Positions 37,779-49,742 are shown, numbered from the stretch's first letter. The stretch is DNA of 64,000 bases from Acidobacteriota bacterium (GCA_038748685.1 JBCDIS010000018.1:1-64000); one strand, 5' to 3'. Notes: generated by a model from the letters alone, not told the origin. Numbers and translations: made by a program.

Positions 37779-39647
37779 TCACCAATGGGGCCGTTCGTCA
37801 TCAGCGCCGACCGTGGCTCCGCCCGGAGCGAGACCGACGACGCCTCCGGCCATGATCCGATCGTGGATCGCCCGCAAACGTCGGGCTTCCTCGGGCTCCC
37901 GGGCGAGCTCCGCCGCCAGCAGGAACGCCTTGGGGTTGAAGGGGTGGAGCGACAAGGCCCGGCGGAGCCAGCGTCGGGCCGTGTCGGGGTCCCCGAGCAG
38001 CCGCGCAGCGGAGGCCATCAGCAAGTAGTCCCGGTGCAGGGTCTTGGTGACCGCCGGCGTCCGCTCGAAGCGGCGCCCCAGGTCCACCACCCGCCGCAGC
38101 GGCCGTACGTCCAGGAGGTGTCCGGTGGACTCGGAGACGGCCCCGGGGACCGAGGGGTCGGAAACGGCGATCGCCCCCGAGGTCGCCGAAAGGTAGGCGC
38201 GCCCGATCCTGGCCGACAGGATCGCCTTCTCCGTGAGGACGTAGGCGTAGAGGATGTGGAGGGCGGCAACGAGGGTGACGCTGAGGGCGACGGCCGTCGA
38301 GGGTCGGCGGCGCCCTGCCGGAGCCTCGGCGTCTTCGGGACGGGCGAAGGCGAGCACCAGGAGGAGAAAGAGCTGGAGCTTGTGGAACGGCATCTCGCTC
38401 ACATAGTCGGTGGCCATGGCGGCGGCCAGGGCAACGACCTGGGCCCACAGCCATGCGTCCCCCGGGGAGCCCCGGGTCCAGTAGCGGCGTGCCGGTGACA
38501 GCGCCGCCAGAGCGAGAACGGCGCTCCAGAGAACGAGACCCGGCCATCCGCCCTCCCCCAGCATCTGGACGTGATCGCTGTGGGCCCGGCGAACCTGAAA
38601 GCCCTGGGAGAACGACCGGGCCGGGTCGAATCGGCGAAACAGTGGGTAGTGGGTCTGCCAGTCGCCGAGGCCGACCCCCAGCGGATGGGCGCGGACCATC
38701 TCCAAGGTGTTGCGCAGGTAGGTGCCCCGGTCGCTGGTCCAATACGCGGTGGGGGACGCCGCCACCTCCAGGGCTGAGGTCGCCCGGAGCCGGGCCCTGG
38801 GGTCCGCCGCGAGGACGACGGCGAAAAGAACCAGCGCCGCGATGGGGAGCCAGCGGCGGGCGGCGTGCCCGGAGGATCCGTCGGCGCCGACCCGCAGCCC
38901 CCGCCACAGGGTCAGGGCGACCCAGGCGCCGGCGCCGATCACCAGGCCGAGGTAGGCGCTGCGGCTCCCCAGCAGCGCCAGGTACACCAGCTCCGCCGCC
39001 AGCAGACCGCCCCAGCGGAGGGCGGCGAAGCCGCGGGAGCCGGCGGCCCGCTCCGCCACCAGGAACAGCTGCCCGAGGAGCGCCAGGGCCATGGGGTTCT
39101 TGTATCCGAACAGAGAAGGGAAAGACCCGCCGAGGTGCGGGTCGATGGGGGCCAGCCAGGGGAGCGCCACAGCCCGCTGGAGAAAGCCCACCGCCGTCGC
39201 CAGGGCGAGTCCGGCGATCAGCCCGTCGCCGATCCAGCGGGGGACCTCGGGCCGCCGAACGCACCACCCCAACAGCACCACGAGGAGGGGAAAAAGGAGG
39301 GCGAGCTGGAGACCTTCGTAGGCCAGATTCTCGGGGACCCGGGTCCAAAGGTGGCCGGTGGCGAGCCAGGCCAGCCAGGCGGAGAGCACCAGCAGCGGCG
39401 TGCGGTGCAGCACCGCCCATAGGTCCCGTCGCCGGGGGCCGCCGAGGCGCGGGGCGAGCCACGCGGAGGCCGCCAGAAAGCCCCATCCCACCGCCAGGGC
39501 CGCCGCGTGCTTCGGCTCCCGGTAGAGCACCGACGTGACGACGCCGTTCTCGTGGATCGGCAGGAACGAAACGGCGGGCAGCGCACCCAGGGCGCGTAGG
39601 TGCCAGCGCAGCCAGCGGTCCCCCGCGGGGCCCCGGGGTGCGCTCAC
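37779..39647 (-). CDS. O-antigen ligase / Wzy_C-family polytopic membrane protein with a C-terminal TPR-like soluble domain
   Basis: Only the 3' 622 codons of ORF 37779..42251 read as protein. Multiple TM helices carry the Wzy_C-like motif RAHSDHVQMLGEGGWPGLVLW, and the C-terminus is TPR-like. There is no ATG before TM1, so the proposed start is the GTG at 39647, which overlaps the TGA of the upstream gene (GTGA). Confidence 0.6.
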   Translation of the reverse strand: MSAPRGPAGDRWLRWHLRALGALPAVSFLPIHENGVVTSVLYREPKHAAALAVGWGFLAASAWLAPRLGGPRRRDLWAVLHRTPLLVLSAWLAWLATGHLWTRVPENLAYEGLQLALLFPLLVVLLGWCVRRPEVPRWIGDGLIAGLALATAVGFLQRAVALPWLAPIDPHLGGSFPSLFGYKNPMALALLGQLFLVAERAAGSRGFAALRWGGLLAAELVYLALLGSRSAYLGLVIGAGAWVALTLWRGLRVGADGSSGHAARRWLPIAALVLFAVVLAADPRARLRATSALEVAASPTAYWTSDRGTYLRNTLEMVRAHPLGVGLGDWQTHYPLFRRFDPARSFSQGFQVRRAHSDHVQMLGEGGWPGLVLWSAVLALAALSPARRYWTRGSPGDAWLWAQVVALAAAMATDYVSEMPFHKLQLFLLLVLAFARPEDAEAPAGRRRPSTAVALSVTLVAALHILYAYVLTEKAILSARIGRAYLSATSGAIAVSDPSVPGAVSESTGHLLDVRPLRRVVDLGRRFERTPAVTKTLHRDYLLMASAARLLGDPDTARRWLRRALSLHPFNPKAFLLAAELAREPEEARRLRAIHDRIMAGGVVGLAPGGATVGADDERPHW

Positions 39648-42487
39648 CTCGGTTCCGATCCGTCGGCCGACGGGGGATCGATCTCGAGGGCCTCGAGGGG
39701 GCGCGGCGCGGTCGGACCCTGCCCCACTGAACTCTGCCCCACTGAACCCTGCTCCACTGAATCCTGCGCTCCGTGGCCGCTGGTCGATTCCGAAGCCGCC
39801 GGTAGGGTCCAGATCAGGGTGACAGCCATCAGGATCCACCAGGGCCACCCTCGGCGGGGCCACGGGGCCACCAGCAGCCAGAACAGGGGAAAGAGTACGG
39901 CCATGGCGGACGCTGCTGCGGTCCCCGGACCGAGGGGCAGGGCCCCCGCGCCTAGGGTTGGGGCGGCGACCAGCCAGCCGCAGGCGCCGCACAGGGTGAC
40001 GAACAGGGCGAACCTCCGGGGCTCGTCGCGTCCGACGGCGAAGAGGGCGACCGCCACCAGGGCTCCGGGGAACAGGCCGAGCCAGCCGGTTCGGGGGTCG
40101 AGGATCGAGGCCCAGGCCCGCTGCCAGATGCCGAGTTCCAGATCCACCGTCCCCCGGGCCCAGGGCGTTGCCCAAGGGGCGAGCCCCCGTGCCGCCGCCG
40201 CCGCCGCGAGGGCGCCTGCGGCGATGGCGACGAGGGGGACGGCGCGGCGATCCTTCGCCACGGCCCCCGCGATCAGCACCAGCGGCGCCGCCAGGGCCGG
40301 GGTGGCGACGGCGGAGTCGGTGGACCAGGCCAACGCCGGAGGGAGGGCCAGGAGGGCCCCCCACAGTCCACCGGTCCAAGCGCCGGAAGTCCCCGAGGGC
40401 AGGGCCCCGGAGCCCCGATGGATCCAAGCTGTGACCGGCCAGAACAGGGCGGCGGCGCCTAGGACCTCCCAGCCTCCGGAGAGCGCCAGGGCCGGGAGGA
40501 TCGAGGCCAGGAGGAAGACCGTCGGTACCCAAGGGGGACTCTCCGCGGCCCCCGACGCGCGACCCGCGCGGTGGATCATTGCGGCGAGGAGCGCCAGGGC
40601 CACCAGACCCAAACCGCCGAGGGCTCTTCCGCCGTTCACCGCCCTGAAGGCAAAGGCCGCCGGGGTCGTCCCCTGCGGCAGCAGAGGCTCCAGCGCCCCT
40701 TCGACCCGCGGGCCGACGTAGAGATCCTGGATCAGCACCCGGGCCGGGGTCGCGACCTCGGAACGGATGGCGAAGGCGACCCGCCGTGCCCGTTCGAGGG
40801 GCACGCCGTCGAGGCGTCGGTCGCCCCGCTCCAAGACCCACCGGCGGGTCCGCTCCGCGGCGAAGGCCCCAGGACCCAGGAGGGCGAGGGTCGCGCCCTC
40901 GTCGTCCAGAAGCCGAAGGCGGAACTGGCAGTCTTCGGAGCCGCGGGACGGAAGAAAGCGCATCACCATCTTGAAGTCGCCGTCGAGGCCGGGGATGGAG
41001 TACGAGCGCTCGACCCATTCCCCCGAAGACACCAGCCGCAGGGGTTCCCGCGCCGCGGTGACCTGCGGGCGGGGGGTACCGGCGGGGGGCAGGTGGACCC
41101 GCCATCCCTGGTTCCCTGCTCCGTAGGGCCAGATCGCGAGGGGCCGGTCCGGGTCCGTTCGCCATCGGGCCACCTCGTGGCGCCAGCTCGGTCTCTCGAC
41201 GAGGCTGCCCTCGGTACGACCCAAGGAGCTGGAGGGAACTTCTTCGAAGTACGAGCCGGTCCCCACCATGAGGGCGATGCCCAAGAGGAGACGGCAGGCC
41301 CAGCGGGGGACGGGGCGGTGGGACCAGGCCCCCGCGACGAGGGAGAGGAGCAGCGCCAGGCCGGGCACGACGGCGTACCGCCGGGCCGGCAGGGCCGGTC
41401 CGGCGGCGAGGGCGACGGTCCCCGCCAGCCATACGAAGGCGAAGGGTAGCCAGCGGGTCCTGGCGGGCAGAGACCGCCAAAGCCAAAGGACGAGGCCGAC
41501 GAGGGCGACCGCGGACACCCAGCCCGCCAGCCTCAGGTAGGGCTGGCCGAGGGCGTCGGCCCTCGGCCCCACCGCCGGCAGAAGGCCGAGGACCCTGGCG
41601 AGGCCCACAGCCAGATCCTCCCCGAGGAGGGCTTGGACGACGTCGAGGTGGACGATTCTGGCGAGCCGGGGCCCCATCCCGCCGCCGGTGAAGCGGTCGA
41701 GGGAAAGCCCCAGCACCAGATCGGTCCAGAAAAACACCGCTGCCTGGAGACCGGCGGTGGCGGTGGCGAGGAGGGCCAGCAGGCGGGTCCTCGGGCCGGG
41801 CTCGGCGACGAAGGCCCGCCAGAGGAAGAAGGGAGCCAGGAAACAGGTGTACGGCCCCGACAGGGCCCCGAGGGTGACGATGGCGACATAGCTGGCGCAA
41901 CGGCGGCGGGATACGGATCCCACGTCCTCCGCCAGGATCAGCAGGGCGGCGACGGCCAGGAACACCTGGGAGTTGATGGTATTGAGCCAGACCTCGCTCA
42001 CCAGGGGCGGCGCCAAGACCATCACCAGGCAGGCGACGACCCTCTGATCGCGGGCGACCCCGAGCCGCGAGCGCCCGCCGAGGAGGATCCAGAGGGGGGT
42101 CAGCTGGACCGCGAAGGCGGCGGCGGTGGTGATCCAGGGCGCCGCCCACAGGGGCACCAGGCGGGTCGCCAGCACCGCCGGCAGATTCGCCGCGAGGTTG
42201 AGGTAGCCGGCGGGGCCGGAGGTGGTGGGGACCAGGAACAGGCTCCGCCACACGCCGTGGTCACGGGCGTAGGCGAGGTAGACGGTGGCCTCCTCGGCCC
42301 ACAGGCGTGGGTCCCAGAGGAGCACCGGCGCCCGGGCCGCGATCAGAGCGGCCCCCGCCAGCAGTCCGAGCCATAGCCAGGCTCGGGTCTCCGGCTGCCC
42401 CCGAAGCTCGCCTGGGGGAGACCCTGAGGCCGGATGCTCCCCGGCCGTCGAGGCTAGGGCGTCTCGGTCGCGGGGGGTCGACGTCAT
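39644..42487 (-). CDS. large (947 aa) polytopic membrane protein: N-terminal GT-C-like (PMT/ArnT-type) glycosyltransferase-like domain, central soluble region, second C-terminal membrane domain
   Basis: Start at the ATG at 42487 (MTSTPRDRD...). About 12 N-terminal TM helices (WLWLGLLAGAALIAARAPVLLWDPRLWAEEATVYLAYARDHGVW...) are followed by a soluble region of about 200 aa. Then come 8 more TM helices and a C-terminal repeat (EQGSVGQSSVGQG). Confidence 0.6.
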   Translation of the reverse strand: MTSTPRDRDALASTAGEHPASGSPPGELRGQPETRAWLWLGLLAGAALIAARAPVLLWDPRLWAEEATVYLAYARDHGVWRSLFLVPTTSGPAGYLNLAANLPAVLATRLVPLWAAPWITTAAAFAVQLTPLWILLGGRSRLGVARDQRVVACLVMVLAPPLVSEVWLNTINSQVFLAVAALLILAEDVGSVSRRRCASYVAIVTLGALSGPYTCFLAPFFLWRAFVAEPGPRTRLLALLATATAGLQAAVFFWTDLVLGLSLDRFTGGGMGPRLARIVHLDVVQALLGEDLAVGLARVLGLLPAVGPRADALGQPYLRLAGWVSAVALVGLVLWLWRSLPARTRWLPFAFVWLAGTVALAAGPALPARRYAVVPGLALLLSLVAGAWSHRPVPRWACRLLLGIALMVGTGSYFEEVPSSSLGRTEGSLVERPSWRHEVARWRTDPDRPLAIWPYGAGNQGWRVHLPPAGTPRPQVTAAREPLRLVSSGEWVERSYSIPGLDGDFKMVMRFLPSRGSEDCQFRLRLLDDEGATLALLGPGAFAAERTRRWVLERGDRRLDGVPLERARRVAFAIRSEVATPARVLIQDLYVGPRVEGALEPLLPQGTTPAAFAFRAVNGGRALGGLGLVALALLAAMIHRAGRASGAAESPPWVPTVFLLASILPALALSGGWEVLGAAALFWPVTAWIHRGSGALPSGTSGAWTGGLWGALLALPPALAWSTDSAVATPALAAPLVLIAGAVAKDRRAVPLVAIAAGALAAAAAARGLAPWATPWARGTVDLELGIWQRAWASILDPRTGWLGLFPGALVAVALFAVGRDEPRRFALFVTLCGACGWLVAAPTLGAGALPLGPGTAAASAMAVLFPLFWLLVAPWPRRGWPWWILMAVTLIWTLPAASESTSGHGAQDSVEQGSVGQSSVGQGPTAPRPLEALEIDPPSADGSEPR

Positions 42488-42527
42488 GGAACCTGGAAAC
42501 CGCCGCCGTCGACGGCGCCCGGGCGTT

Positions 42528-43001
42528 TCAGATCGAGCCGGGCTCGGAGCCGTCCTTGGGGAGCTCCCGCTCGGCGAGCTCGAAGCGGCGCTCCACCCTC
42601 TTGACGTGGCGGGCCTCACCTTCGGTCAGGCGACCGTCGGAGGCGATCAGCTCGTGGCAGGCGACCAGGGCCCGCCTGCGGGCTTCGGCGGTGCCGAGCC
42701 GGTGCGAGATCCCGTCGAGATACTCGCCGGCGAGGTTGTCGTCCTCCAGCACGTCGCGGGCGCGGGTGACCGCCGCTTCGAGGAAGGTGGGAAGGGGGGT
42801 GACGGCGTCCCACGGGAGATCCCGGGTATGGCCCTCGATGGTGTCCCGCTCGGCGAGGGCAAGGTGTCGATCGACGTACATGGTCCAGACCAGCAGGTCG
42901 ACGAGGGCCTCCCGCTGGGCCTGGGCGAGGGTTGGGGAAGCGTCGGGCTCCGCGGCGCTGCCGGATCGAAGGAGCGCCAACAGGCGATCGAAGACGGTCA
43001 T
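42528..43001 (-). CDS. TerB-like / tellurite-resistance-TerB-family small protein
   Basis: Two helical repeats with conserved acidic residues of the form DxxxDGxLxxxExxxL (VDLLVWTMYVDRHLALAERDTI and LIASDGRLTEGEARHV). Confidence 0.45.
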   Translation of the reverse strand: MTVFDRLLALLRSGSAAEPDASPTLAQAQREALVDLLVWTMYVDRHLALAERDTIEGHTRDLPWDAVTPLPTFLEAAVTRARDVLEDDNLAGEYLDGISHRLGTAEARRRALVACHELIASDGRLTEGEARHVKRVERRFELAERELPKDGSEPGSI

Positions 43002-43093
43002 GGGATCCTCCGGTATTTGAGGGGGGAGGATAGCAGCGTTCCACCGCCGCGGACCGGCGGGGCCCGTTTAGGGGCCTGCTGTAGAGTGTGAGA

Positions 43094-43555
43094 ATGGAGG
43101 AAACGGCCTTCTGGCGTCGCAAAACGCTGGAACAGATGACCACCGGAGAGTGGGAATCCCTATGCGATGGCTGCGGTCGCTGCTGTCTCGTCAAGCTCGA
43201 AGACGCCGACACCGGCGAGGTCGAGACCACCAACGTCGCCTGCCGGTGGCTCGATCTGCGAACCTGCCGGTGCACGGATTACCCGAATCGAACGCGCAAC
43301 GTTGCGGGCTGTGTTCAGCTGACACCGCAGATGACCCGGGACACCACGTGGCTGCCGTCGACCTGCGCCTACCGCCTGATCGCCGAAGGGCGGGAGCTCT
43401 ACCCCTGGCATCCGCTGCTGTCGGGGGACCCGGAGTCCGTCCACCGGGCGGGGATCTCGGTGCGGGCCAAGGTGGTCTCGGAATCGGAGGTCGGCGAGCT
43501 GGAGACCCTGATCGAGGAGGGATTCGCCTTGGAGGACGAGCTCACCCCCCGCTGA
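43094..43555 (+). CDS. UPF0260 / YcgN-family cysteine-cluster protein
   Basis: [27 protein letters not shown]...[17 protein letters not shown]...[10 protein letters not shown] is co-linear with E. coli YcgN ([27 protein letters not shown]...). Confidence 0.75.
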
Positions 43556-43580
43556 GGGACGGGGGAGCCGTAGCCGAGCC

Positions 43581-45356
43581 ATGGGGGCCTACGACGCCAC
43601 CCTCGAGCAGGCCCTTGACCTCTTCGAGGGTCCTTGGTCGTGGCTCGCCGACGGCCTCGCCCGGGGTCGTTACGCCCTGTGGCTCGGTTCCGCCATCTCC
43701 CGCCGGAGGCTTCCGGACCTCGGGGAGCTCCTCCGGCGCCTGCTCGGCGAGCTCGGCCGACGCCGGGCTTCGGGGGATCCGCGCTGCCCCTACGACCGCG
43801 CCCTCGGGGAGCTACTCGACCTGGCGGGGGAGCGGGGCGTCGACCGGGCCGCGGATCCTCGGTCGTGGCCCCAGCTCGACGCCGTCGTCGACCGCCTGTG
43901 GACGCGATACGACGAGGTCCTAGGCACCCGGCTGAGGACCGACGACGGCACGACGGTGGCGGATTTCCTCGAGCTTCCGAATCTTTACGGCGATCCCGGC
44001 ATGGAGCCGGACGCCGACCATCGACTGATCGCCCTGTGGCTTGAGGAAGGGGTCGTTTCGGAGCTCTACTCCGGCAACTGGGACGGCCTGGTGGAGGAAG
44101 CCCACCGCCGGATCCGCGGTCCCCGCTCGGTGGAGCTCCAGGTGGTCGCCCGGCCCGAAGACCTGCCCGATGCGAGAACCGGGCAGCCGGTGCTCTACAA
44201 ATTCCACGGCTGCGCCGTGCAGGCCCTCGCCGAGGGGGACCCCGGCCAGCTCGTGGCCACCCAGCGGGGTCTCTTGGGTTGGCTTCTGCTGCCGGAGGCG
44301 GAGCCCCTCCGCGAGGCCATGGGGCACGCCATGCGCCGAAGCCCGGCCATGTTCGTCGGTCTGTCGGCCCAAGACGTGAATCTCCAGGGACTGTTCCGGA
44401 GGGTCGCTTCGGCCGGGTCCGTGGACCGCGGGGACGATCTCCCCCGGGCGGTCTTCGCCAAACCCAGCCTCGAGCGCCCTCAGATGGATGTCCTCGAGAC
44501 CCTCCATCCCGATGCCTACCGCGTCGGCCTCGACCCCGCTGCCCTGGAGGCGCGGGCGGCCCTGCCCCTATTCTCCCAGCCGTTCTTCGGCGGCTTCTAC
44601 CTCTGGCTGCTCCTGGCGAAGGCCCGCGCCCTCCTCGATTTGGCGCGGGAGGCGGGAGAGCCCACCGGTGAGGGGGAGCTGCGGAGGCGGATCGAAGGGG
44701 AGCTCTTCCACCTGCGGCGGGCCCTTTGCCTTCGCTATGACCCGGTGGAACCCGAGAACCGCTGGGAACGGCTGGCGCAGGAGCTGCCGGAGGGCCTCGG
44801 CAGGATGTTGGGGATCTTCCAGGACGGCGAGCCCCCGGGTTCCTGCGCGCCGTACCGCTTTCTGACCCCGTGCCATCTCGACCGGATCCCCCGGGAGTGG
44901 GCGCTGCGGAGGGAGTACTTCGATCGGCTCATGCTGGTGCTCGCCCTGCTCGCTCTTCTGGCCCGGGAGCGGGGCTGGCGCCTGGACCTGGCGCCGGCGG
45001 CCGGGGGTTGCCACGCCACCCTCGACGACGGCCACCGGCGGTCCCAGGTGTTTGTGCTGCAGAGCATGGGGCGCGCGGCGGAACGGCTGCGGTTTCACCA
45101 CCTCGGAGGGGCCGCCGACCCCTGGACGGTCATCGTTTATGTGGAGGGGAGCGAGCCGCGGATTCGCCGTACCGCCCCCAGCCGGGGTGGCCTGCCGGGG
45201 CGGAGGGGGACCGGCATCTCCTCGTCTTCGCCGACGGAGATCTGGCTCACCGACGCCCTCGCAGACCCGCCCTTCGCTGTTTCGACTTCCAGCGCCGCCG
45301 CCGCCGAAGCCCTACGCCGCCGACTGCCGCCGATGGGGGGAGCCGCGCCGTGGTGA
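43581..45356 (+). CDS. SIR2-like (SIR2_2 family) domain protein with a C-terminal domain of unknown function, a candidate LmuA-type effector
   Basis: SIR2_2 signature blocks: YALWLGSAISRRRLPDLGELL (GAGxS-like NAD pocket), ELYSGNWDGLVEEA (TTNYD-like) and VLYKFHGC (KLHGS-like). Its stop overlaps the next gene's start. Confidence 0.75.
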   Translation: MGAYDATLEQALDLFEGPWSWLADGLARGRYALWLGSAISRRRLPDLGELLRRLLGELGRRRASGDPRCPYDRALGELLDLAGERGVDRAADPRSWPQLDAVVDRLWTRYDEVLGTRLRTDDGTTVADFLELPNLYGDPGMEPDADHRLIALWLEEGVVSELYSGNWDGLVEEAHRRIRGPRSVELQVVARPEDLPDARTGQPVLYKFHGCAVQALAEGDPGQLVATQRGLLGWLLLPEAEPLREAMGHAMRRSPAMFVGLSAQDVNLQGLFRRVASAGSVDRGDDLPRAVFAKPSLERPQMDVLETLHPDAYRVGLDPAALEARAALPLFSQPFFGGFYLWLLLAKARALLDLAREAGEPTGEGELRRRIEGELFHLRRALCLRYDPVEPENRWERLAQELPEGLGRMLGIFQDGEPPGSCAPYRFLTPCHLDRIPREWALRREYFDRLMLVLALLALLARERGWRLDLAPAAGGCHATLDDGHRRSQVFVLQSMGRAAERLRFHHLGGAADPWTVIVYVEGSEPRIRRTAPSRGGLPGRRGTGISSSSPTEIWLTDALADPPFAVSTSSAAAAEALRRRLPPMGGAAPW

Positions 45357-45940
45357 GATTGGACGATGGGACGAAGGGGACCGGTGTGGAGCGGGTGGTG
45401 GAGGTCCTGGTGCGCCGGGGTCGATACCGCTTGATGGCATCCCCCCTGCGGATCGACGGCGTGCGCTTCGAGCTCGACGCCGTTCTGGAGGGGCCCGGTC
45501 GACAGCGGCACACCGTGCTCGTGGCGGACGGCGCCGCGCCGGAGGCCGCCGGCGTCCCCCATCGAATCCGGGCCCTGGTCCTGCTGCTGGAGCGGGCCGA
45601 ATCGGCCCGGCCCCTGACGCTGGTATGGCTCGACGGAGACGGCAAGGGGCGGCCGCCCCTCGAAGACCTCTGCCGGGTGGTGGCGGTGGACCCCCACCGG
45701 GACGACGACGACCTGGCGGAGCGGCTGGCGTCGCTCCTGCCCCTGGAGCTGCCGGAGCCCCCGGAACCCGTCGGATCGGTCGAGGGATTCTTGAATCGAC
45801 GGCTGGAAGACGCCGACGACTCCGTCACCGCGGCCCTGAGGGCGGCGGCGGCCTCGGGCACGGAAGCGGTCCGTTCGGCCCTGATCCAAATCCTGGAGGA
45901 CGCCCACCCGCTGGCGGAGCCCTCGGGGGAGGAGGAATGA
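45353..45940 (+). CDS. small (about 195 aa) hypothetical protein, middle gene of the SIR2/SMC operon (LmuC-like position)
   Basis: The reading frame of ORF 44870..45940 becomes non-P/R-rich from here. The start codon GTG at 45353 (or 45350) overlaps the SIR2 TGA (GTGA), with a GGGGGGAG SD 10-13 nt upstream. Its stop overlaps the ATG of the ATPase (ATGA). An alternative ATG start is at 45434. Confidence 0.5.
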   Translation: MRLDDGTKGTGVERVVEVLVRRGRYRLMASPLRIDGVRFELDAVLEGPGRQRHTVLVADGAAPEAAGVPHRIRALVLLLERAESARPLTLVWLDGDGKGRPPLEDLCRVVAVDPHRDDDDLAERLASLLPLELPEPPEPVGSVEGFLNRRLEDADDSVTAALRAAAASGTEAVRSALIQILEDAHPLAEPSGEEE

Positions 45941-47691
45941 TCGAGCGCTTGACAGCCTTGGAGCTGACCGACTTTCGCGGCTGGCGGGGCGCCCACGGGG
46001 TACCCCTCGACGCCGACGTGGTGCTCCTCCACGGCGCGAACGGCGCCGGGAAATCTAGCCTCCTGGCGGCTCTGGAGCTGGGATTGACCGGCGCGGTGGG
46101 GGACCTCGCCGGCTTTGTGGACGACTACCCCAGGTGCCTACGCCACGTGGGCGCCGCAGAGGCCCGGGTCACCCTCCGCTGGCGGTCGGGGGAGGGCGAG
46201 AGTTCCGTCGAACGGACCGTGGGCGGGGCCGTGGAGACGGCGGGGGGCGCGGAGCTGGATCCGGCCCTCGGCCGTCGCTTCGTCGAGAGGTGCTATCTCT
46301 CCCAGGCCCGCCTCTCCCGTCTTCTGGAGGTGTACCAGACCCCCGACGCGGGCCGGGAGCAGCCGATCCTCCGCATGCTCGGCGCCATGCTGGGCTTCGG
46401 GCCGGTGGACGCCCTCATGGAGGGCCTGCACCCCGCCGGGGACCTGAGGGTTCTACGAAAAGCGTCCCCCGCCGTCGCCCGTCTCGACGCGGAGGAGCGC
46501 CGCCTCGACGCGGATCGGCGGGGTTGGGAGCAGCGCTGCGCCCGCCTCGAAGAGGACTGGCGGCGGGCCCGCCGGGAGGTCGAGGCCGTAGACCGTCAGC
46601 TCGACGGGTCTCGGAACGCGTTCGGCGAGCCGGACTGGGGGGAGGACGAAGATCCCCTGGTGGACGCCGTCCGCACCAGGATCGCGGCGCTACGGCCGGA
46701 GGAGGAACTGGAGGAGACGGAGACGGGGCTCCAGGGGGTTCACCGGATCCGCGGGATCCTGGAGACGCTGGAGGCGTTAGGGGTGGATCGCCTCGCCGAG
46801 GATTCCGAGCTAGGCCGTGCGGCGACCGCCCTGCTACGTCGGGAGGCCCAGCGGCTCGGGGTCGAGGGTAGGTCCTTGGCCGAAACCCACGGCGTGCTTT
46901 CCGAGGCCGTCGTCGACGAGGCGCGCCGCTGGAGCGACGCGCGGGGGGACGCGGTCCGCCGGCTGCGGTGGGTGCAGCGGGCCGAGGGGGCCCTGGTCCG
47001 CCTGACGGAGACCCGCCTTCGCCTCGCCGAGTCCCAGCGCCGGCGGGCGGATTTCGCCGCCAAATCCCGGGAGCTTGAGTCGGCGCGGGTACGGGTCGAC
47101 GGCGTGGTGTCGGCGGCTAGACGGCTGCGGGGCGCCGCGGCCGAAGCCCAGGCGGAGATGGTGTCCCGCCTGCTCGACGAGCGGCTCAACGAGCGCTGGG
47201 GGGACCTCTTCGGCCGGCTGGCGCCGGCGGAGCGTTTCCGGCCGAAGCTGGGGGCGCCGCGGGTGCGGCGGGGCCGCCTACGGGCCTCGGCCCGGGCGAC
47301 CTCCGACGGCGCCGAGGGGTTCGACCGGCTGGGGGCGGTCCTGAGCTCCGGAAATCTCAACACCGCCGCCCTGACCCTTTTCGTGGCCCTCCATTTCATG
47401 GAGAGATCCCAACCGCCGGTCCTGGTGATCGATGACCCGGTCCAGGCGATGGACGACGTCCACACGGTGCAGCTGGCGGCGCTGCTCCGCTCCATCGTCT
47501 ACGACGGCGGCCGTCAGCTCATCCTCGCCGTCCACGACCGCGCCCTCTTCGACTACCTCACCCTGGAGCTCGGTCCCACCACGTCCGGCCATAGTCTCCT
47601 GGCCTTGGGCGTCCGACGGGGAGAGGACGGCCCCAGCCTCGACGTCCGCCAAAGGGTCTGGCGGGACGACGGTGTCCGGTTCGGAGACTGA
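45937..47691 (+). CDS. SMC/Rad50/RecN-like ABC ATPase (584 aa) with a coiled-coil insert, a candidate LmuB-type partner
   Basis: N-terminal Walker A LLHGANGAGKSSLLAALE; a long Arg/Glu/Leu coiled coil; C-terminal signature-like LSSGNLNTAALTLFVAL and Walker B/D-loop PVLVIDDPVQAMDD. The RBS GGAGGAGGAA precedes the ATG at 45937. The upstream part of ORF 45052..47691 is a P/R-rich artefact. Confidence 0.75.
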   Translation: MIERLTALELTDFRGWRGAHGVPLDADVVLLHGANGAGKSSLLAALELGLTGAVGDLAGFVDDYPRCLRHVGAAEARVTLRWRSGEGESSVERTVGGAVETAGGAELDPALGRRFVERCYLSQARLSRLLEVYQTPDAGREQPILRMLGAMLGFGPVDALMEGLHPAGDLRVLRKASPAVARLDAEERRLDADRRGWEQRCARLEEDWRRARREVEAVDRQLDGSRNAFGEPDWGEDEDPLVDAVRTRIAALRPEEELEETETGLQGVHRIRGILETLEALGVDRLAEDSELGRAATALLRREAQRLGVEGRSLAETHGVLSEAVVDEARRWSDARGDAVRRLRWVQRAEGALVRLTETRLRLAESQRRRADFAAKSRELESARVRVDGVVSAARRLRGAAAEAQAEMVSRLLDERLNERWGDLFGRLAPAERFRPKLGAPRVRRGRLRASARATSDGAEGFDRLGAVLSSGNLNTAALTLFVALHFMERSQPPVLVIDDPVQAMDDVHTVQLAALLRSIVYDGGRQLILAVHDRALFDYLTLELGPTTSGHSLLALGVRRGEDGPSLDVRQRVWRDDGVRFGD

Positions 47692-47735
47692 GAGCGGTTT
47701 GGGGGAGCGGTCTTCACTGCGTCTTGACAGGCAAA

Positions 47736-47744
47736 TGATATAAT
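47736..47744 (+). promoter_or_regulatory. extended -10 promoter element TGATATAAT (a TTGACA lies 9 nt upstream, not at canonical spacing)
   Basis: A perfect TGnTATAAT in an AT-rich island in otherwise 70% GC DNA, about 195 nt upstream of a small secreted-protein ORF. The leader contains several short hairpins (CCATCC-tcgtg-GGATGG and GTGCGA-N13-TCGCAC). Confidence 0.3.
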
Positions 47745-47938
47745 CGACAAATCGTCGACTCGGCGTCATTGCGCCCGAGTGGGTCTGAAGCAGGCCGGTT
47801 GGGCGGTGCGCCATCCAATATCAGGGACCCGGAAATCCGGATCGGCGATCGACTCTTGTTCAAGCCATCCTCGTGGGATGGCGTTTCTAGACCTCCGGCG
47901 GTGCGAGAGCGCATCCGGATCGCACAAGGAGTGGAATC

Positions 47939-48199
47939 ATGCGTCGACAGTCGTTGGCCGTAGGGCTGGCCTTGGCCCTTTTCTTTTGGATCGCCCTTCC
48001 AACCTTCGCAGCTCCGAGCATTGAAGCGTCCCCAGGTTGGGTGACGTCCGTGCTGGACTGGTCCCACGGGTGGGTGGAAAGCCTGCTCATCTGGATCGAT
48101 CAGAGCACCAGCGCTCCGGATCCAGATCCCGATCCGGACTCGGAAATCGGGCCGGGGATCGAGCCCGGGGGGACCGCAGCGCCGGACCCCAAAGCCTGA
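47939..48199 (+). CDS. small secreted protein (86 aa) with a DPDPDPD acidic tail
   Basis: The RBS AAGGAG lies 8 nt upstream of the ATG. A clear signal peptide is MRRQSLAVGLALALFFWIALPTFAAPS. Confidence 0.45.
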   Translation: MRRQSLAVGLALALFFWIALPTFAAPSIEASPGWVTSVLDWSHGWVESLLIWIDQSTSAPDPDPDPDSEIGPGIEPGGTAAPDPKA

Positions 48200-48281
48200 C
48201 CGCGGAGGTTCCGGGCCCGCGGAGGGAAGCTTTTCCCGCCGCGGCCCGGAGCGTGCCCGGGCCGGATGCCGGAGCCGCCGA

Positions 48282-49742
48282 TCAAAGGACGACGCCGGGG
48301 CGCCTCGCGCCGTGGCGCTGCATTTCCTGCTCGAATCCGTCGGCGAGGTCGAGGGTCAGCTGGCCGGCGAGGGCGGCGCGGACGAAAGCCAGGGTGGCGG
48401 CTTCCAGCACGGGGCTCTTGGCGAAGCTCTGGAGCAGGGACGCCATGCCCGACGCCATCTCCACCGCCTCCTGGGTCTTCCCCTGCTCCAGCAGCAGTCG
48501 GACGAGGTCGAGGGTCACCAGAGCCGAGTCGAGGCCTCCGCAGTCGAGCATCTGCCGCTGGGCCTGCCTCAGGCGCTCCTCGGCGAGGTCGTGGTCACCC
48601 TTCAGCCGCGCCAGGCGACCGTACTCCCAGACCATCTTCGCCTGGTTGATCCCTCCTTCGTCGTGGAAAGCCTCGACGGCCTTCCCGAGCCAGCGCTCGC
48701 TGGCTTCGAGATCCCGGGCGTTCTCATGGGCGAGGGCGAGATTCTGGTAAGCCGCGACGCGGTACCGCCGTAGGGCAGGGCTGCCCTGGGGCATCCGTCG
48801 GAGCGCCTTGCGCAGGGCACGGGACGCCGCCAGGGAGTCCTGTAGAAGGTTGAAGACGACCCCCCGATCCACCTGTACCTTCGCCACCTCGACTTCGAGA
48901 TCCAGGTCGTAGAACACCACCAGGGCCTCCCTCAAGACCTCGATGGCTTCGCGGTGCTGGCCGTGATCGCAAAGCACGTAGGCCGCCCGCCGCAGCAGGT
49001 CTCCGGTCACCGCGTCCAGGCCGCGGGTACGGCTGACCTCGAGGGCGAAGCCGACCGCGGCGGCCGCCAGGGAGAGGTTGCCGAGCAGGCGCTGTGCGGA
49101 ACCGTAAATGCCGATGGCCCGCAGCGCCAGGGCCAGTCGCTCGGGATCCTGCCCTTCGAGGATCGCCGGAACCAGCTCGGCGCCCACCACCTCCACGAGC
49201 TTGGCGGCTTCCCGGGGCTCGTCGTAGCGCAGGGCGTCGAGGTGGTCGAGATAGGCGGTGGCGAATTCTAGAGTGCGGTAGCGGTGGGCGTGGCGCAGCC
49301 TACGCCGCTGCTCGATGCGACCGCAGCGGGCCACGTCGTTTACCAGATCCTGAACCGGCGTCGGATCTGGATCGAGTATCCCCGACGGGTAGATCTCGGA
49401 GTGGTCTCCGTCTTCGAGATGACCGGCCAGAAGGACCGCGGCCTCCTGCATGTTGGCGAGGGGCCGATCGTCCACCGCGCTGCGCAGGCTGTCGAGGTAC
49501 TCGAGGGAGCTTCTGGGGGCGTCGAGGGCTCGGCCGAAGAACTGGCCGGGATCGGTCTTCAGCAGCTCGAGGGATTTGAGCAGCACTTCGAGGGGGATGG
49601 AGATGTCCCCGCGACAGAACTTGCTCAGATAGCCTTCGCTGCGGGAGAGCCCGGTTTCGACCTCTCGAATGCGGCCGAAATTCTTCTGCAACTCCGTCCG
49701 CAGCGCGGCTTGCAGTCGTCGATAGGCGTCCCCTGAGTCCAT
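48282..49742 (-). CDS. XRE-type HTH plus TPR-like regulator
   Basis: The N-terminal HTH (LRTELQKNFGRIREVETGLSRSEGYLSKFCRGDISIPLEVLLKSLELL) is followed by about 400 aa of TPR-like helical repeats. Confidence 0.65.
   Translation of the reverse strand: MDSGDAYRRLQAALRTELQKNFGRIREVETGLSRSEGYLSKFCRGDISIPLEVLLKSLELLKTDPGQFFGRALDAPRSSLEYLDSLRSAVDDRPLANMQEAAVLLAGHLEDGDHSEIYPSGILDPDPTPVQDLVNDVARCGRIEQRRRLRHAHRYRTLEFATAYLDHLDALRYDEPREAAKLVEVVGAELVPAILEGQDPERLALALRAIGIYGSAQRLLGNLSLAAAAVGFALEVSRTRGLDAVTGDLLRRAAYVLCDHGQHREAIEVLREALVVFYDLDLEVEVAKVQVDRGVVFNLLQDSLAASRALRKALRRMPQGSPALRRYRVAAYQNLALAHENARDLEASERWLGKAVEAFHDEGGINQAKMVWEYGRLARLKGDHDLAEERLRQAQRQMLDCGGLDSALVTLDLVRLLLEQGKTQEAVEMASGMASLLQSFAKSPVLEAATLAFVRAALAGQLTLDLADGFEQEMQRHGARRPGVVL

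What the first reader, a model, noticed from the sequence alone, without database searches (positions are those of the whole stretch)
43581..47691. Translationally coupled SIR2-like / small protein / SMC-like ATPase operon: candidate Lamassu-type (Sir2-effector) anti-phage system
Three same-strand genes are fused by start/stop overlaps. The SIR2 TGA overlaps the GTG of a 195-aa protein (GTGGTGA at 45350-45356). That protein's TGA overlaps the ATG of a 584-aa ABC ATPase (ATGA at 45937-45940). Gene 1 has the three SIR2_2 signature blocks (LWLGSAIS, SGNWDGL, KFHGC) plus an uncharacterised C-terminal domain. Gene 3 has Walker A GANGAGKSS, a long coiled coil, and a C-terminal signature/Walker B (LSSGNLN, VLVIDDP), which is an SMC/Rad50-like layout. 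The order effector / small protein / SMC ATPase is that of Lamassu (LmuA-LmuC-LmuB; the DdmABC order), with an NAD+-depleting Sir2 as the predicted effector. The operon sits between a housekeeping-looking YcgN gene and an AT-rich promoter island, and an XRE-HTH/TPR regulator is encoded just downstream.
Basis: partly seen in the sequence, partly recalled or inferred. Interest (0 to 1): 0.8.

Follow-up and report, generated by a model that had tools for sequence, protein, structure and literature searches.

The report
Compact hookless Sir2-type Lamassu defence operon
Three overlapping genes in an Acidobacteriota genome encode a Lamassu-type anti-phage system with a predicted NAD+-destroying Sir2 effector, a known kind of system, here with an unusually shortened sensor ATPase that has lost its zinc hook.

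Summary
Three same-strand genes, 43581-45356, 45350-45940 and 45937-47691, are joined by the GTGGTGA and ATGA overlaps. They encode a 591-aa SIR2_2 protein, a 196-aa protein and a 584-aa Rad50/SMC-like ABC ATPase.

The ATPase matches PADLOC LmuB models (2.6e-21; relatives reach 1e-36). The same overlapping trio recurs in Bradyrhizobium, Ensifer, a conjugative Agrobacterium plasmid and next to an integrase and relaxase. The Sir2 domain keeps its catalytic Asn, Asp and His. Its predicted fold matches defence NADases (KomC, ThsA, SPARSA, DSR2), not CobB-type sirtuins.

This is a Lamassu-family system with a Sir2 effector, a subtype already catalogued (Millman 2022; Haudiquet 2025).

One feature is unusual. 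All 54 other retrieved LmuB homologs carry a central CP[VIL]C zinc hook, and 50 of them are 797-823 aa. The window's LmuB and one 42%-identical relative are about 590 aa and have no hook. About 110 residues are missing from each coiled-coil arm, yet the long-type Walker B (VLVIDD) is kept.

The middle protein has a nuclease-like fold without catalytic residues, then a linker and a helical tail. It is not kleisin-like. LmuA and LmuC membership was not confirmed by any profile. Function is inferred, not tested.

The parts
43581..45356 (+). lmuA-like effector gene (591 aa): N-terminal SIR2_2 NADase domain plus an uncharacterised C-terminal domain
   Evidence: ORF. Pfam SIR2_2 3.5e-11. 218 homologs, almost all 560-590 aa. 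AF2 model pLDDT 85, pTM 0.89.
43581..44570 (+). SIR2 domain, about residues 1-330. NAD-binding GS motif LWLGSAIS at 43677-43700; catalytic N166/D168 in SGNWDGL at 44070-44090; catalytic H209 in KFHGC at 44199-44213
   Evidence: G36, S37, N166, W167, D168, K207, H209, G210 and C211 are invariant in 69 family members. Foldseek top hits are KomC, ThsA, SPARSA SIR2, DSR2 and AVAST5 at prob 1.00.
44571..45353 (+). LmuA C-terminal domain, about residues 331-591: long helices 332-464, then a beta-sheet 466-555 with a disordered loop 521-551
   Evidence: AF2 secondary structure. No Pfam family (protein 2). The layout of helices plus a beta-sheet fits the published description of long-Lamassu LmuA CTDs. 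It was not compared directly.
45350..45940 (+). Middle gene, lmuC-like (196 aa), translationally coupled at both ends
   Evidence: Overlaps. 195 cluster representatives at E<=1e-3, almost all 160-208 aa. Homologs sit between SIR2 and LmuB in L001, L002, L004 and L005. AF2 pLDDT 90.4.
45383..45724 (+). Middle protein N-terminal alpha/beta domain (residues 12-125) with a restriction-endonuclease-like (PD-(D/E)xK-like) fold lacking a conserved catalytic (D/E)xK
45725..45904 (+). Middle protein conserved Pro-rich linker (L-x-x-LLPL-x-LP, residues 126-143) and C-terminal three-helix domain (144-185)
   Evidence: L126, L129, L130, P131, L132 and P135 are each kept in 84-92 of 96 members. Helices 144-151, 157-167 and 171-185.
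45937..47691 (+). lmuB-like Rad50/SbcC-type ABC ATPase (584 aa), hookless, with a short coiled coil
   Evidence: PADLOC LmuB PDLC03859 2.6e-21. Pfam AAA_23 above its cut-off. Homologs. The family profile hits Rad50 heads and the Rad50 zinc hook in the PDB.
46033..46056 (+). Walker A GANGAGKS (residues 33-40)
   Evidence: G33, N35, G38 and K39 are invariant.
46459..47256 (+). Shortened coiled-coil region, about residues 175-440, with no CxxC zinc hook. Relative to 812-aa homologs it lacks about 115 residues on the N-terminal arm and about 105 residues covering the hook and the C-terminal arm
   Evidence: CxxC scan of 56 homologs. Deletion map against P0127. Alignment with the Bradyrhizobium and Ensifer LmuB.
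47341..47436 (+). ABC signature LSSGNLN (47341-47361) and Walker B VLVIDD (47419-47436). H-loop H533 lies at 47533-47535
   Evidence: S470, G472, N473, D499, D500 and H533 are invariant in 27 homologs. hhhhDD is the long-Lamassu Walker B consensus.
43088..43555 (+). YcgN-like CxxCxxCC gene 25 nt upstream on the same strand. It may be co-transcribed. Whether it belongs to the system is unresolved
   Evidence: Pfam PF03692 4.5e-10. The same adjacency occurs in L005. It is absent from the other family loci and from 80 YcgN loci.

Best explanation
This is a Lamassu-family abortive-infection system with a Sir2 effector, derived from the 'long' Lamassu lineage.

Proposed mechanism, by analogy with the solved Vibrio LmuABC complex and the published long-Lamassu models:
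1. A dimer of the Rad50/SbcC-like ATPase LmuB (gene 3), together with the middle protein (gene 2, in the LmuC position), holds one copy of LmuA-Sir2 (gene 1) inactive through its C-terminal domain.
2. The complex meets phage or plasmid DNA ends or replication intermediates.
3. ATP hydrolysis by LmuB then releases LmuA.
4. LmuA oligomerises and its SIR2 domain hydrolyses NAD+, which stops growth of the infected cell.

Shown here: domain identities, intact catalytic motifs, conserved overlapping gene order, and sporadic, partly plasmid- or ICE-borne distribution of the family.

Inferred: complex formation, the DNA trigger, NAD+ depletion and protection from phage.

Specific to this locus: LmuB lost the zinc hook and about 220 residues of coiled coil, roughly equally from both arms. 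Dimerisation must therefore rely on the ATP-engaged heads or on partner proteins.
For: - LmuB profile hits: 2.6e-21 for the window protein. The 807- and 813-aa orthologs of the same trio reach 1e-33 to 1e-36, and the Ensifer protein covers the whole model.
- The trio is conserved with 4-bp overlaps in Bradyrhizobium (L002), Ensifer (L004), an Agrobacterium conjugative plasmid (L088), a metagenomic contig next to an integrase, an excisionase-type HTH gene and a TrwC relaxase (L089), and L005, L006 and L090.
- Sir2: N166, D168 and H209 are invariant. The fold matches defence NADases at prob 1.00.
- ATPase: Walker A, Q-loop, signature, Walker B DD and H-loop are invariant.
- The Walker B hhhhDD, and the layout of the middle protein as globular domain, linker and small domain, match the published long-Lamassu description.
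- The long-clade relatives all carry a single CP[VIL]C hook, and their profile hits the Rad50 zinc hook 1l8d.
- Selection: dN/dS against the 98%-identical MAG is 0.21-0.61, with no frameshifts. The hookless form is kept in a 42%-identical ortholog with all motifs intact.
- The family occurs on 20 Rhizobiales plasmids, 12 of them conjugative.
Against: - No PADLOC LmuA or LmuC model matches gene 1 or gene 2, nor any of 69 and 96 family members.
- The middle protein's fold does not match solved short LmuC or SbcD. Its best matches are PD-(D/E)xK nucleases.
- Two defining long-Lamassu features are missing in LmuB: a length of about 800 aa and a single CxxC.
- The window shows no other defence genes or mobile elements nearby, and the operon's GC equals the background.
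- No Sir2-type Lamassu was found to have been tested experimentally in the papers read.
Confidence: 0.72

Rival explanations
1. It is a separate three-component SIR2 / middle-protein / ABC-ATPase defence system that shares only the Rad50-like ATPase with Lamassu. The SIR2 protein and the nuclease-fold middle protein were recruited independently. It works like Lamassu but is not a member in its A and C components.
For: - No LmuA or LmuC profile hits in the whole family.
- The middle protein has a PD-(D/E)xK-like fold, which is not reported for LmuC.
- The literature itself says Sir2 effectors entered long and short Lamassu independently.
Against: - LmuB hits are strong and cover the full profile in relatives.
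- The gene order, the size of the middle gene, its layout of linker plus small C-terminal domain, and the helix plus beta-sheet CTD all fit the published long-Lamassu description.
- PADLOC v2.0.0 dates from 2023 and predates the 2025 re-survey, which added 12% more systems.
Confidence: 0.13
2. It is a decaying, non-functional remnant. The LmuB deletion removing the hook and much of the coiled coil inactivated the sensor, and the operon is drifting.
For: - 54 of 56 homologs keep the hook.
- The operon shows more amino-acid change against the sister MAG than its neighbours do: dN is 0.007-0.009 against 0.
- There is no defence-island context.
Against: - The hookless form is shared by a 42%-identical ortholog with all ATPase motifs intact.
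- The deletions are balanced between the two arms, about 115 against about 105 residues, as an antiparallel coiled coil requires.
- There are no stops or frameshifts, both overlaps are kept, and dN/dS is below 1.
- Short Lamassu without a hook, such as Vc-Cap4, is functional.
Confidence: 0.1
3. It is a housekeeping DNA-repair or chromosome-maintenance module of SbcC/Rad50/RecN type, with a sirtuin that regulates it by deacylation or ADP-ribosylation, co-expressed with ycgN.
For: - The family profile's closest solved relatives are Rad50 ATPases.
- Some sources name homologs 'exonuclease SbcC'.
- The operon sits among housekeeping-type genes and 25 nt after ycgN.
Against: - There is no SbcD/Mre11 phosphoesterase partner.
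- The RecF, Rad50 and SMC equivalog models score 16-34 bits against cut-offs of 172-1087.
- The Sir2 is SIR2_2 with a defence-NADase fold, not PF02146.
- Distribution is patchy and partly plasmid- or ICE-borne.
- The operon is absent from 80 ycgN loci.
Confidence: 0.04

Closest known systems
Long Lamassu with Sir2 effector (Lamassu family, Millman et al. 2022; long/short classification of Haudiquet et al. 2025, PMC12663957)
   Same: - Order LmuA(Sir2)-LmuC-LmuB with overlapping genes.
- LmuB Walker A Gx4GKS and Walker B hhhhDD.
- Middle protein with a globular domain, an unstructured linker and a short C-terminal domain.
- LmuA CTD of helices plus a beta-sheet.
- The nearest LmuB homologs are about 810 aa with a single CPVC hook.
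   Different: - LmuB here is 584 aa, with no CxxC and about 220 fewer coiled-coil residues.
- Genes 1 and 2 match no PADLOC LmuA or LmuC model.
- The middle protein's N-domain looks like an inactive PD-(D/E)xK fold, not the reported SbcD-CTD similarity.
Short Lamassu / DdmABC of Vibrio cholerae (PDB 9NY5, 9NYG)
   Same: - Three genes in the order effector, small protein, SMC-like ATPase.
- LmuB of about 600 aa without a zinc hook.
- The presumed logic: a monomeric effector is sequestered and then released on DNA-end sensing.
   Different: - The effector is Cap4 nuclease, not Sir2.
- Walker B is hhhhD[Q/S/T/E], not DD.
- Short LmuC is HTH-like.
- No sequence-level match of the window family profile to solved short LmuB or LmuC.
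SbcCD / Rad50-Mre11 DNA-repair complex
   Same: - Rad50-type ABC head.
- Coiled coil, with a zinc hook in the long relatives.
- A small partner gene directly upstream of the ATPase gene.
   Different: - No Mre11/SbcD nuclease.
- A Sir2 effector instead.
- Scores far below the equivalog cut-offs.
- Mobile, patchy distribution.
Defence SIR2 NADases (ThsA of Thoeris, DSR2, SPARSA SIR2-APAZ, KomC, AVAST5)
   Same: SIR2 fold with catalytic Asn and His. The expected output is NAD+ depletion.
   Different: - Different sensor partners and domains: no SLOG, TIR, pAgo or Avs-type STAND.
- Here the SIR2 is fused to a Lamassu-style CTD and coupled to an SMC-like ATPase.

Membership tests
Lamassu family (any type) | LmuB: SMC/Rad50-like ABC ATPase with Walker A Gx4GK[S/T] and a coiled-coil insertion | tested here: met
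   PADLOC LmuB 2.6e-21. GANGAGKS, signature, Walker B and H-loop are present and invariant. The coiled-coil region lies between the head halves.
Lamassu family (any type) | LmuA: N-terminal effector domain of a catalogued type (Cap4, Mrr, protease, Sir2, ...) plus a C-terminal docking domain | tested here: inconclusive
   The Sir2 effector is confirmed. The CTD has helices plus a beta-sheet, as described for long LmuA. No LmuA profile hit in 69 family members, and no reference CTD structure was available to superpose.
Lamassu family (any type) | LmuC: short gene between lmuA and lmuB, homologous to known LmuC | tested here: inconclusive
   Position, size (196 aa) and coupling are met. There is no LmuC profile hit in 96 members, no PDB sequence hit, and no fold match to solved LmuC or SbcD.
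Lamassu family (any type) | Protection against phage or plasmid by abortive infection, dependent on the ATPase and the effector | not testable with these tools
   Needs cloning and phage challenge.
Long Lamassu | LmuB of about 800 aa | tested here: not met
   584 aa. Of the 54 other retrieved homologs, 50 are 797-823 aa and four are 678-786 aa.
Long Lamassu | Walker B hhhhDD | tested here: met
   VLVIDD; D499 and D500 are invariant.
Long Lamassu | Exactly one CxxC zinc hook in LmuB | tested here: not met
   No CxxC in the window protein or in P0122. The other 54 homologs all have a central CP[VIL]C.
Long Lamassu | LmuC with an additional short domain after an unstructured linker | tested here: met
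   AF2 model: domain 12-125, Pro-rich linker 126-143, three-helix domain 144-185. Definition taken.
Short Lamassu | LmuB of about 600 aa with Walker B hhhhD[Q/S/T/E], grouping with short LmuB | tested here: not met
   The length fits, but Walker B is DD. All near homologs are long-type. The family profile does not hit solved short LmuB at E<=1e-3.
SbcCD / Rad50-Mre11 | Mre11/SbcD phosphoesterase partner and equivalog-level score for SbcC/Rad50 | tested here: not met
   Neither partner gene has a metallophosphatase domain. Rad50 models score 20-29 bits against cut-offs of 700-1087.
Housekeeping sirtuin (CobB, Pfam PF02146 SIR2) | Match to PF02146 and a deacylase-type sirtuin fold | tested here: not met
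   Only PF13289 SIR2_2 matches. The top 50 fold hits are all defence NADases.
Thoeris ThsA | SIR2 fused to SLOG/STALD, with a TIR-domain ThsB partner | tested here: not met
   Relatives give only weak partial ThsA hits over the SIR2 region. The operon has no SLOG domain or TIR gene.

The most novel reading that the evidence does not exclude
The window and L005 may represent a second, independent compaction of a long Lamassu into a hookless sensor of about 590 aa. This form keeps the long-type Walker B (DD), the long-type middle protein and the long-type LmuA CTD. It would be a natural intermediate between long and short Lamassu, and would show that neither the zinc hook nor about 220 coiled-coil residues are needed for sensing. 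In both known cases the operon is fused behind a YcgN-type Cys-rich metal-binding gene, which could be a functional partner.
Probability: 0.3. Interest if true: 0.5.

Novelty: new variant of a known kind. Interest (0 to 1): 0.35.

Why it matters
Sir2-type Lamassu systems are catalogued, but none has been tested in the papers read here, and all solved Lamassu structures are of the short type.

A long-lineage system that has naturally lost its zinc hook and half its coiled coil, while keeping every catalytic motif, is a compact candidate for experiments. At 4.1 kb for three genes, it could be used to test three things:
- whether long-type Lamassu senses DNA the way the short type does;
- whether the hook matters;
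- whether LmuA-Sir2 really depletes NAD+.

It also shows that the 2023 PADLOC profiles used here miss the LmuA and LmuC components of this whole family, which spans hundreds of clusters. Such operons would therefore not be called as complete systems by those profiles.

Tried and rejected
- **Active nuclease in the middle protein.** Rejected: no conserved (D/E)xK.
- **Island test through relatives.** A scan of GTDB genome contigs with YcgN gave 80 loci, none with the operon. None is a close relative either, and one Acidobacteriota MAG (L013) shares no synteny. The only close relative (L006, 98% identical) has the identical context. Island status in this lineage is therefore undetermined.
- **YcgN co-transfer.** The YcgN genes of the window and L005 are not each other's nearest relatives. 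This neither supports nor excludes a functional link.
- **More hookless members.** Two metagenome scans found nothing.
- **Direct link to Millman's Table S7.** The stored copy is cut before the Sir2 rows. The PNAS paper's supplements are not held.
- **Structure prediction with locus-derived sequences.** Solved by using representatives.
- **Sequence searches of the PDB.** They gave nothing for gene 1, gene 2 or their family profiles.
- **Other scans.** The SIR2 protein has no phage-genome homologs. The window has no tRNA or Rfam hit.

Full report
**Observation**

The window is a 72% GC contig identical to a MAG assigned to Acidobacteriota (P0001 and P0121 are 100% identical). Three + strand ORFs lie at the stated coordinates: 43581-45356 (591 aa), 45350-45940 (196 aa from the GTG) and 45937-47691 (584 aa).

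The GTGGTGA overlap at 45350-45356 and the ATGA overlap at 45937-45940, with a GGAGGAGGA Shine-Dalgarno-like run just before it, read exactly as reported. All quoted motifs are present.

A genome this GC-rich has long chance ORFs in every frame. The reality of these genes therefore rests on homologs and conserved synteny, described below.

**What the three proteins are**

*Gene 1.* It matches Pfam SIR2_2 (43.8 bits against a cut-off of 24.5) and nothing else. Residues 330-591 match no Pfam family.
- In an alignment of 69 family members, the NAD-pocket Gly-Ser (G36, S37), the catalytic Asn and Asp (N166, D168) and the catalytic His (H209) are invariant.
- An AlphaFold2 model (pLDDT 85, pTM 0.89) was searched against the PDB. 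All top 50 hits are defence NADases: KomC, ThsA, SPARSA SIR2, DSR2 and AVAST5, each at probability 1.00. No CobB-type sirtuin appears.

*Gene 3.* It has Walker A GANGAGKS, Q-loop Q123, signature LSSGNLN, Walker B VLVIDD and H-loop H533, all invariant among homologs.
- Its best profile hits in PADLOC are LmuB models, at 2.6e-21.
- NCBIfam RecF, Rad50 and SMC equivalogs score 16-34 bits against cut-offs of 172-1087.

*Gene 2.* It matches nothing in Pfam, NCBIfam, PADLOC or PDB sequences. It nevertheless belongs to a large family: 195 cluster representatives at E<=1e-3, almost all 160-208 aa.

**Conservation of the trio**

The same three genes occur in the same order with 4-bp overlaps in:
- Bradyrhizobium sp. 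170 (L002);
- an Ensifer contig (L004);
- a conjugative Agrobacterium fabrum plasmid, next to KAP NTPase and DUF4145 genes (L088);
- a metagenomic contig directly beside a phage-type integrase, an excisionase-like HTH gene and a TrwC relaxase (L089);
- L090 (LmuB cut by the contig end), L005 and the 98%-identical sister MAG L006. In L001 the contig ends within the middle gene, so only the first two genes are seen.

The middle proteins of five loci align at 29-38% identity, with a shared CRV motif and an LLPLxLP motif. SIR2 homologs occur on 20 Rhizobiales plasmids, 12 of them conjugative, and on no phage record.

The LmuB proteins of the Bradyrhizobium and Ensifer trios hit LmuB models at 7e-36 and 5e-33. 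The Ensifer protein covers the whole profile. This is a mobile, sporadically distributed three-gene module built around a LmuB-type ATPase.

**Comparison with the literature**

Millman et al. (bioRxiv 10.1101/2022.05.11.491447) extended Lamassu to a family in which the LmuA effector domain can be SIR2.

Haudiquet et al. (PMC12663957 and its preprint) split Lamassu into two types:
- long: LmuB about 800 aa, Walker B hhhhDD, always one CxxC hook, longer LmuC with an extra small domain after a linker, LmuA CTD with helices and a beta-sheet;
- short: LmuB about 600 aa, Walker B hhhhD[Q/S/T/E], zero to two hooks.

They state that Sir2 effectors occur in both types and were acquired independently.

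The relatives found here fit the long type. Of the 54 other LmuB homologs, 50 are 797-823 aa and four are 678-786 aa. All 54 have a central CP[VIL]C, and all but two have an hhhhDDP match. The family profile hits Rad50 heads (9e-9) and the Pyrococcus Rad50 zinc hook (1l8d, 2e-5) in the PDB.

**What is unusual here**

The window's LmuB (584 aa) and one other protein (P0122, 592 aa, 42% identical, locus L005) are the only two of 56 homologs with no CxxC at all.

Mapped on an 812-aa relative, the window protein lacks about 115 residues on the ascending arm and about 105 residues covering the hook and the descending arm. A balanced loss like this is what an antiparallel coiled coil needs to stay in register.

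The Walker B stays DD (long type). The middle protein and the LmuA CTD also look long type. A 687-aa homolog (P0124) that still has its hook shows an intermediate length.

Against the 98%-identical MAG, the three genes show no frameshifts and dN/dS of 0.37, 0.61 and 0.21. These rest on few substitutions.

I read this as a functional, secondarily compacted, hookless derivative of a long Sir2 Lamassu. [quoted passage not shown] A decaying remnant is the main alternative, and I rate it about 0.1.

**The middle protein**

With 96 representatives as the alignment, AlphaFold2 gives a confident model (pLDDT 90.4). It has three parts:
- an alpha/beta domain (residues 12-125);
- a Pro-rich linker (126-143) carrying the most conserved residues of the family (L126, L129, L130, P131, L132, P135);
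- a three-helix C-terminal domain (144-185).

The layout of domain, linker and small helical domain does match the published description of long LmuC. It recalls the Rad50-binding tail of Mre11/SbcD; that last point is my inference.

**Mechanism**

Shown here: an intact ABC ATPase of LmuB type, an intact SIR2 active site with a defence-NADase fold, a conserved coupled operon, and mobile, patchy distribution of the family.

Inferred by analogy with the Vibrio LmuABC structures and the AF3-based long-Lamassu models and with defence SIR2 enzymes:
1. LmuB2-LmuC holds one LmuA-Sir2 inactive.
2. DNA ends or replication intermediates of an invader are detected.
3. ATP hydrolysis releases LmuA.
4. LmuA oligomerises and depletes NAD+, giving abortive infection.

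Without a hook, the LmuB dimer must rely on head engagement or on the partner proteins.

**Context**

The operon's GC equals the background. Its neighbours are housekeeping-type or unknown genes:
- a TerB-like gene;
- a large membrane protein;
- a YcgN-like CxxCxxCC gene;
- an 86-aa secreted-looking ORF;
- a TPR protein with a sub-threshold HTH;
- an inositol monophosphatase-family gene.

No close relative lacking the operon was available, so 'island' status in this lineage is untested.

One coincidence is unexplained. In both hookless loci a YcgN-like gene sits 17-25 nt upstream on the same strand, although every other flank differs. The two YcgN proteins are only 56% identical. None of 80 other YcgN loci carries the operon.

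**Verdict**

The locus is a Sir2-effector Lamassu of long-lineage origin with a compact, hookless LmuB. That makes it a new variant of a known kind.

Interest is moderate (0.35). The class is known and the function is untested. The natural hook and coiled-coil deletion, and the failure of the 2023 PADLOC profiles to recognise the A and C components of this family, are useful leads.

Noticed in passing
window 43088-43555; L005 5256-5714: A YcgN-like CxxCxxCC gene sits 25 nt (window) or 17 nt (L005) upstream of the Sir2 gene on the same strand. This holds in both hookless Lamassu loci, although all other flanks differ. The two YcgN proteins are only 56% identical. None of 80 other YcgN loci has the operon.
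   Followed up: partly
window 47939-48199 (+): An 86-aa ORF just downstream of lmuB has a signal-peptide-like N-terminus and a PDPDPDPD run. It is conserved at 98% in the sister MAG (L006 12305-12565). It matches no Pfam or PADLOC family and is not present in L005.
   Followed up: partly
window 47725-47750: TTGACA and TATAAT hexamers lie in the 63% GC intergenic stretch after lmuB, but only 9 nt apart, so they do not form a canonical sigma-70 promoter. The consensus scan found no promoter-like site in 42800-48400.
   Followed up: partly
window 48282-49742 (-): A 486-aa TPR protein (TPR_12, MalT-like TPR) has only a sub-threshold XRE-type HTH (HTH_31, 17 bits against a cut-off of 27). It is 100% identical in the sister MAG while the Lamassu genes differ by 1.5-2%. 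It has no PADLOC hit and there is no evidence that it belongs to the system.
   Followed up: partly
L005 9804-10312: In the second hookless locus, the operon is followed directly by an 85-aa antitoxin-like gene and a ParE-family toxin gene (Pfam ParE_toxin 3.5e-7). This is a mobile or defence-type neighbour that the window lacks.
   Followed up: partly
L091 576-3524: The 687-aa intermediate-length LmuB homolog P0124, which keeps its hook, is followed on the opposite strand by a classical PF02146 SIR2 gene and a PIN/PhdYeFM toxin-antitoxin pair.
   Followed up: no
window 39716-39767 and the ORFs 37779-42619 (-): Very long overlapping ORFs (1490 and 991 aa) cover a 15-bp tandem repeat (3.5 copies). 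The sister MAG is annotated here with a Wzy_C O-antigen-ligase-like gene (622 aa) and a 947-aa membrane protein. This suggests a cell-envelope polysaccharide locus upstream of the finding.
   Followed up: no
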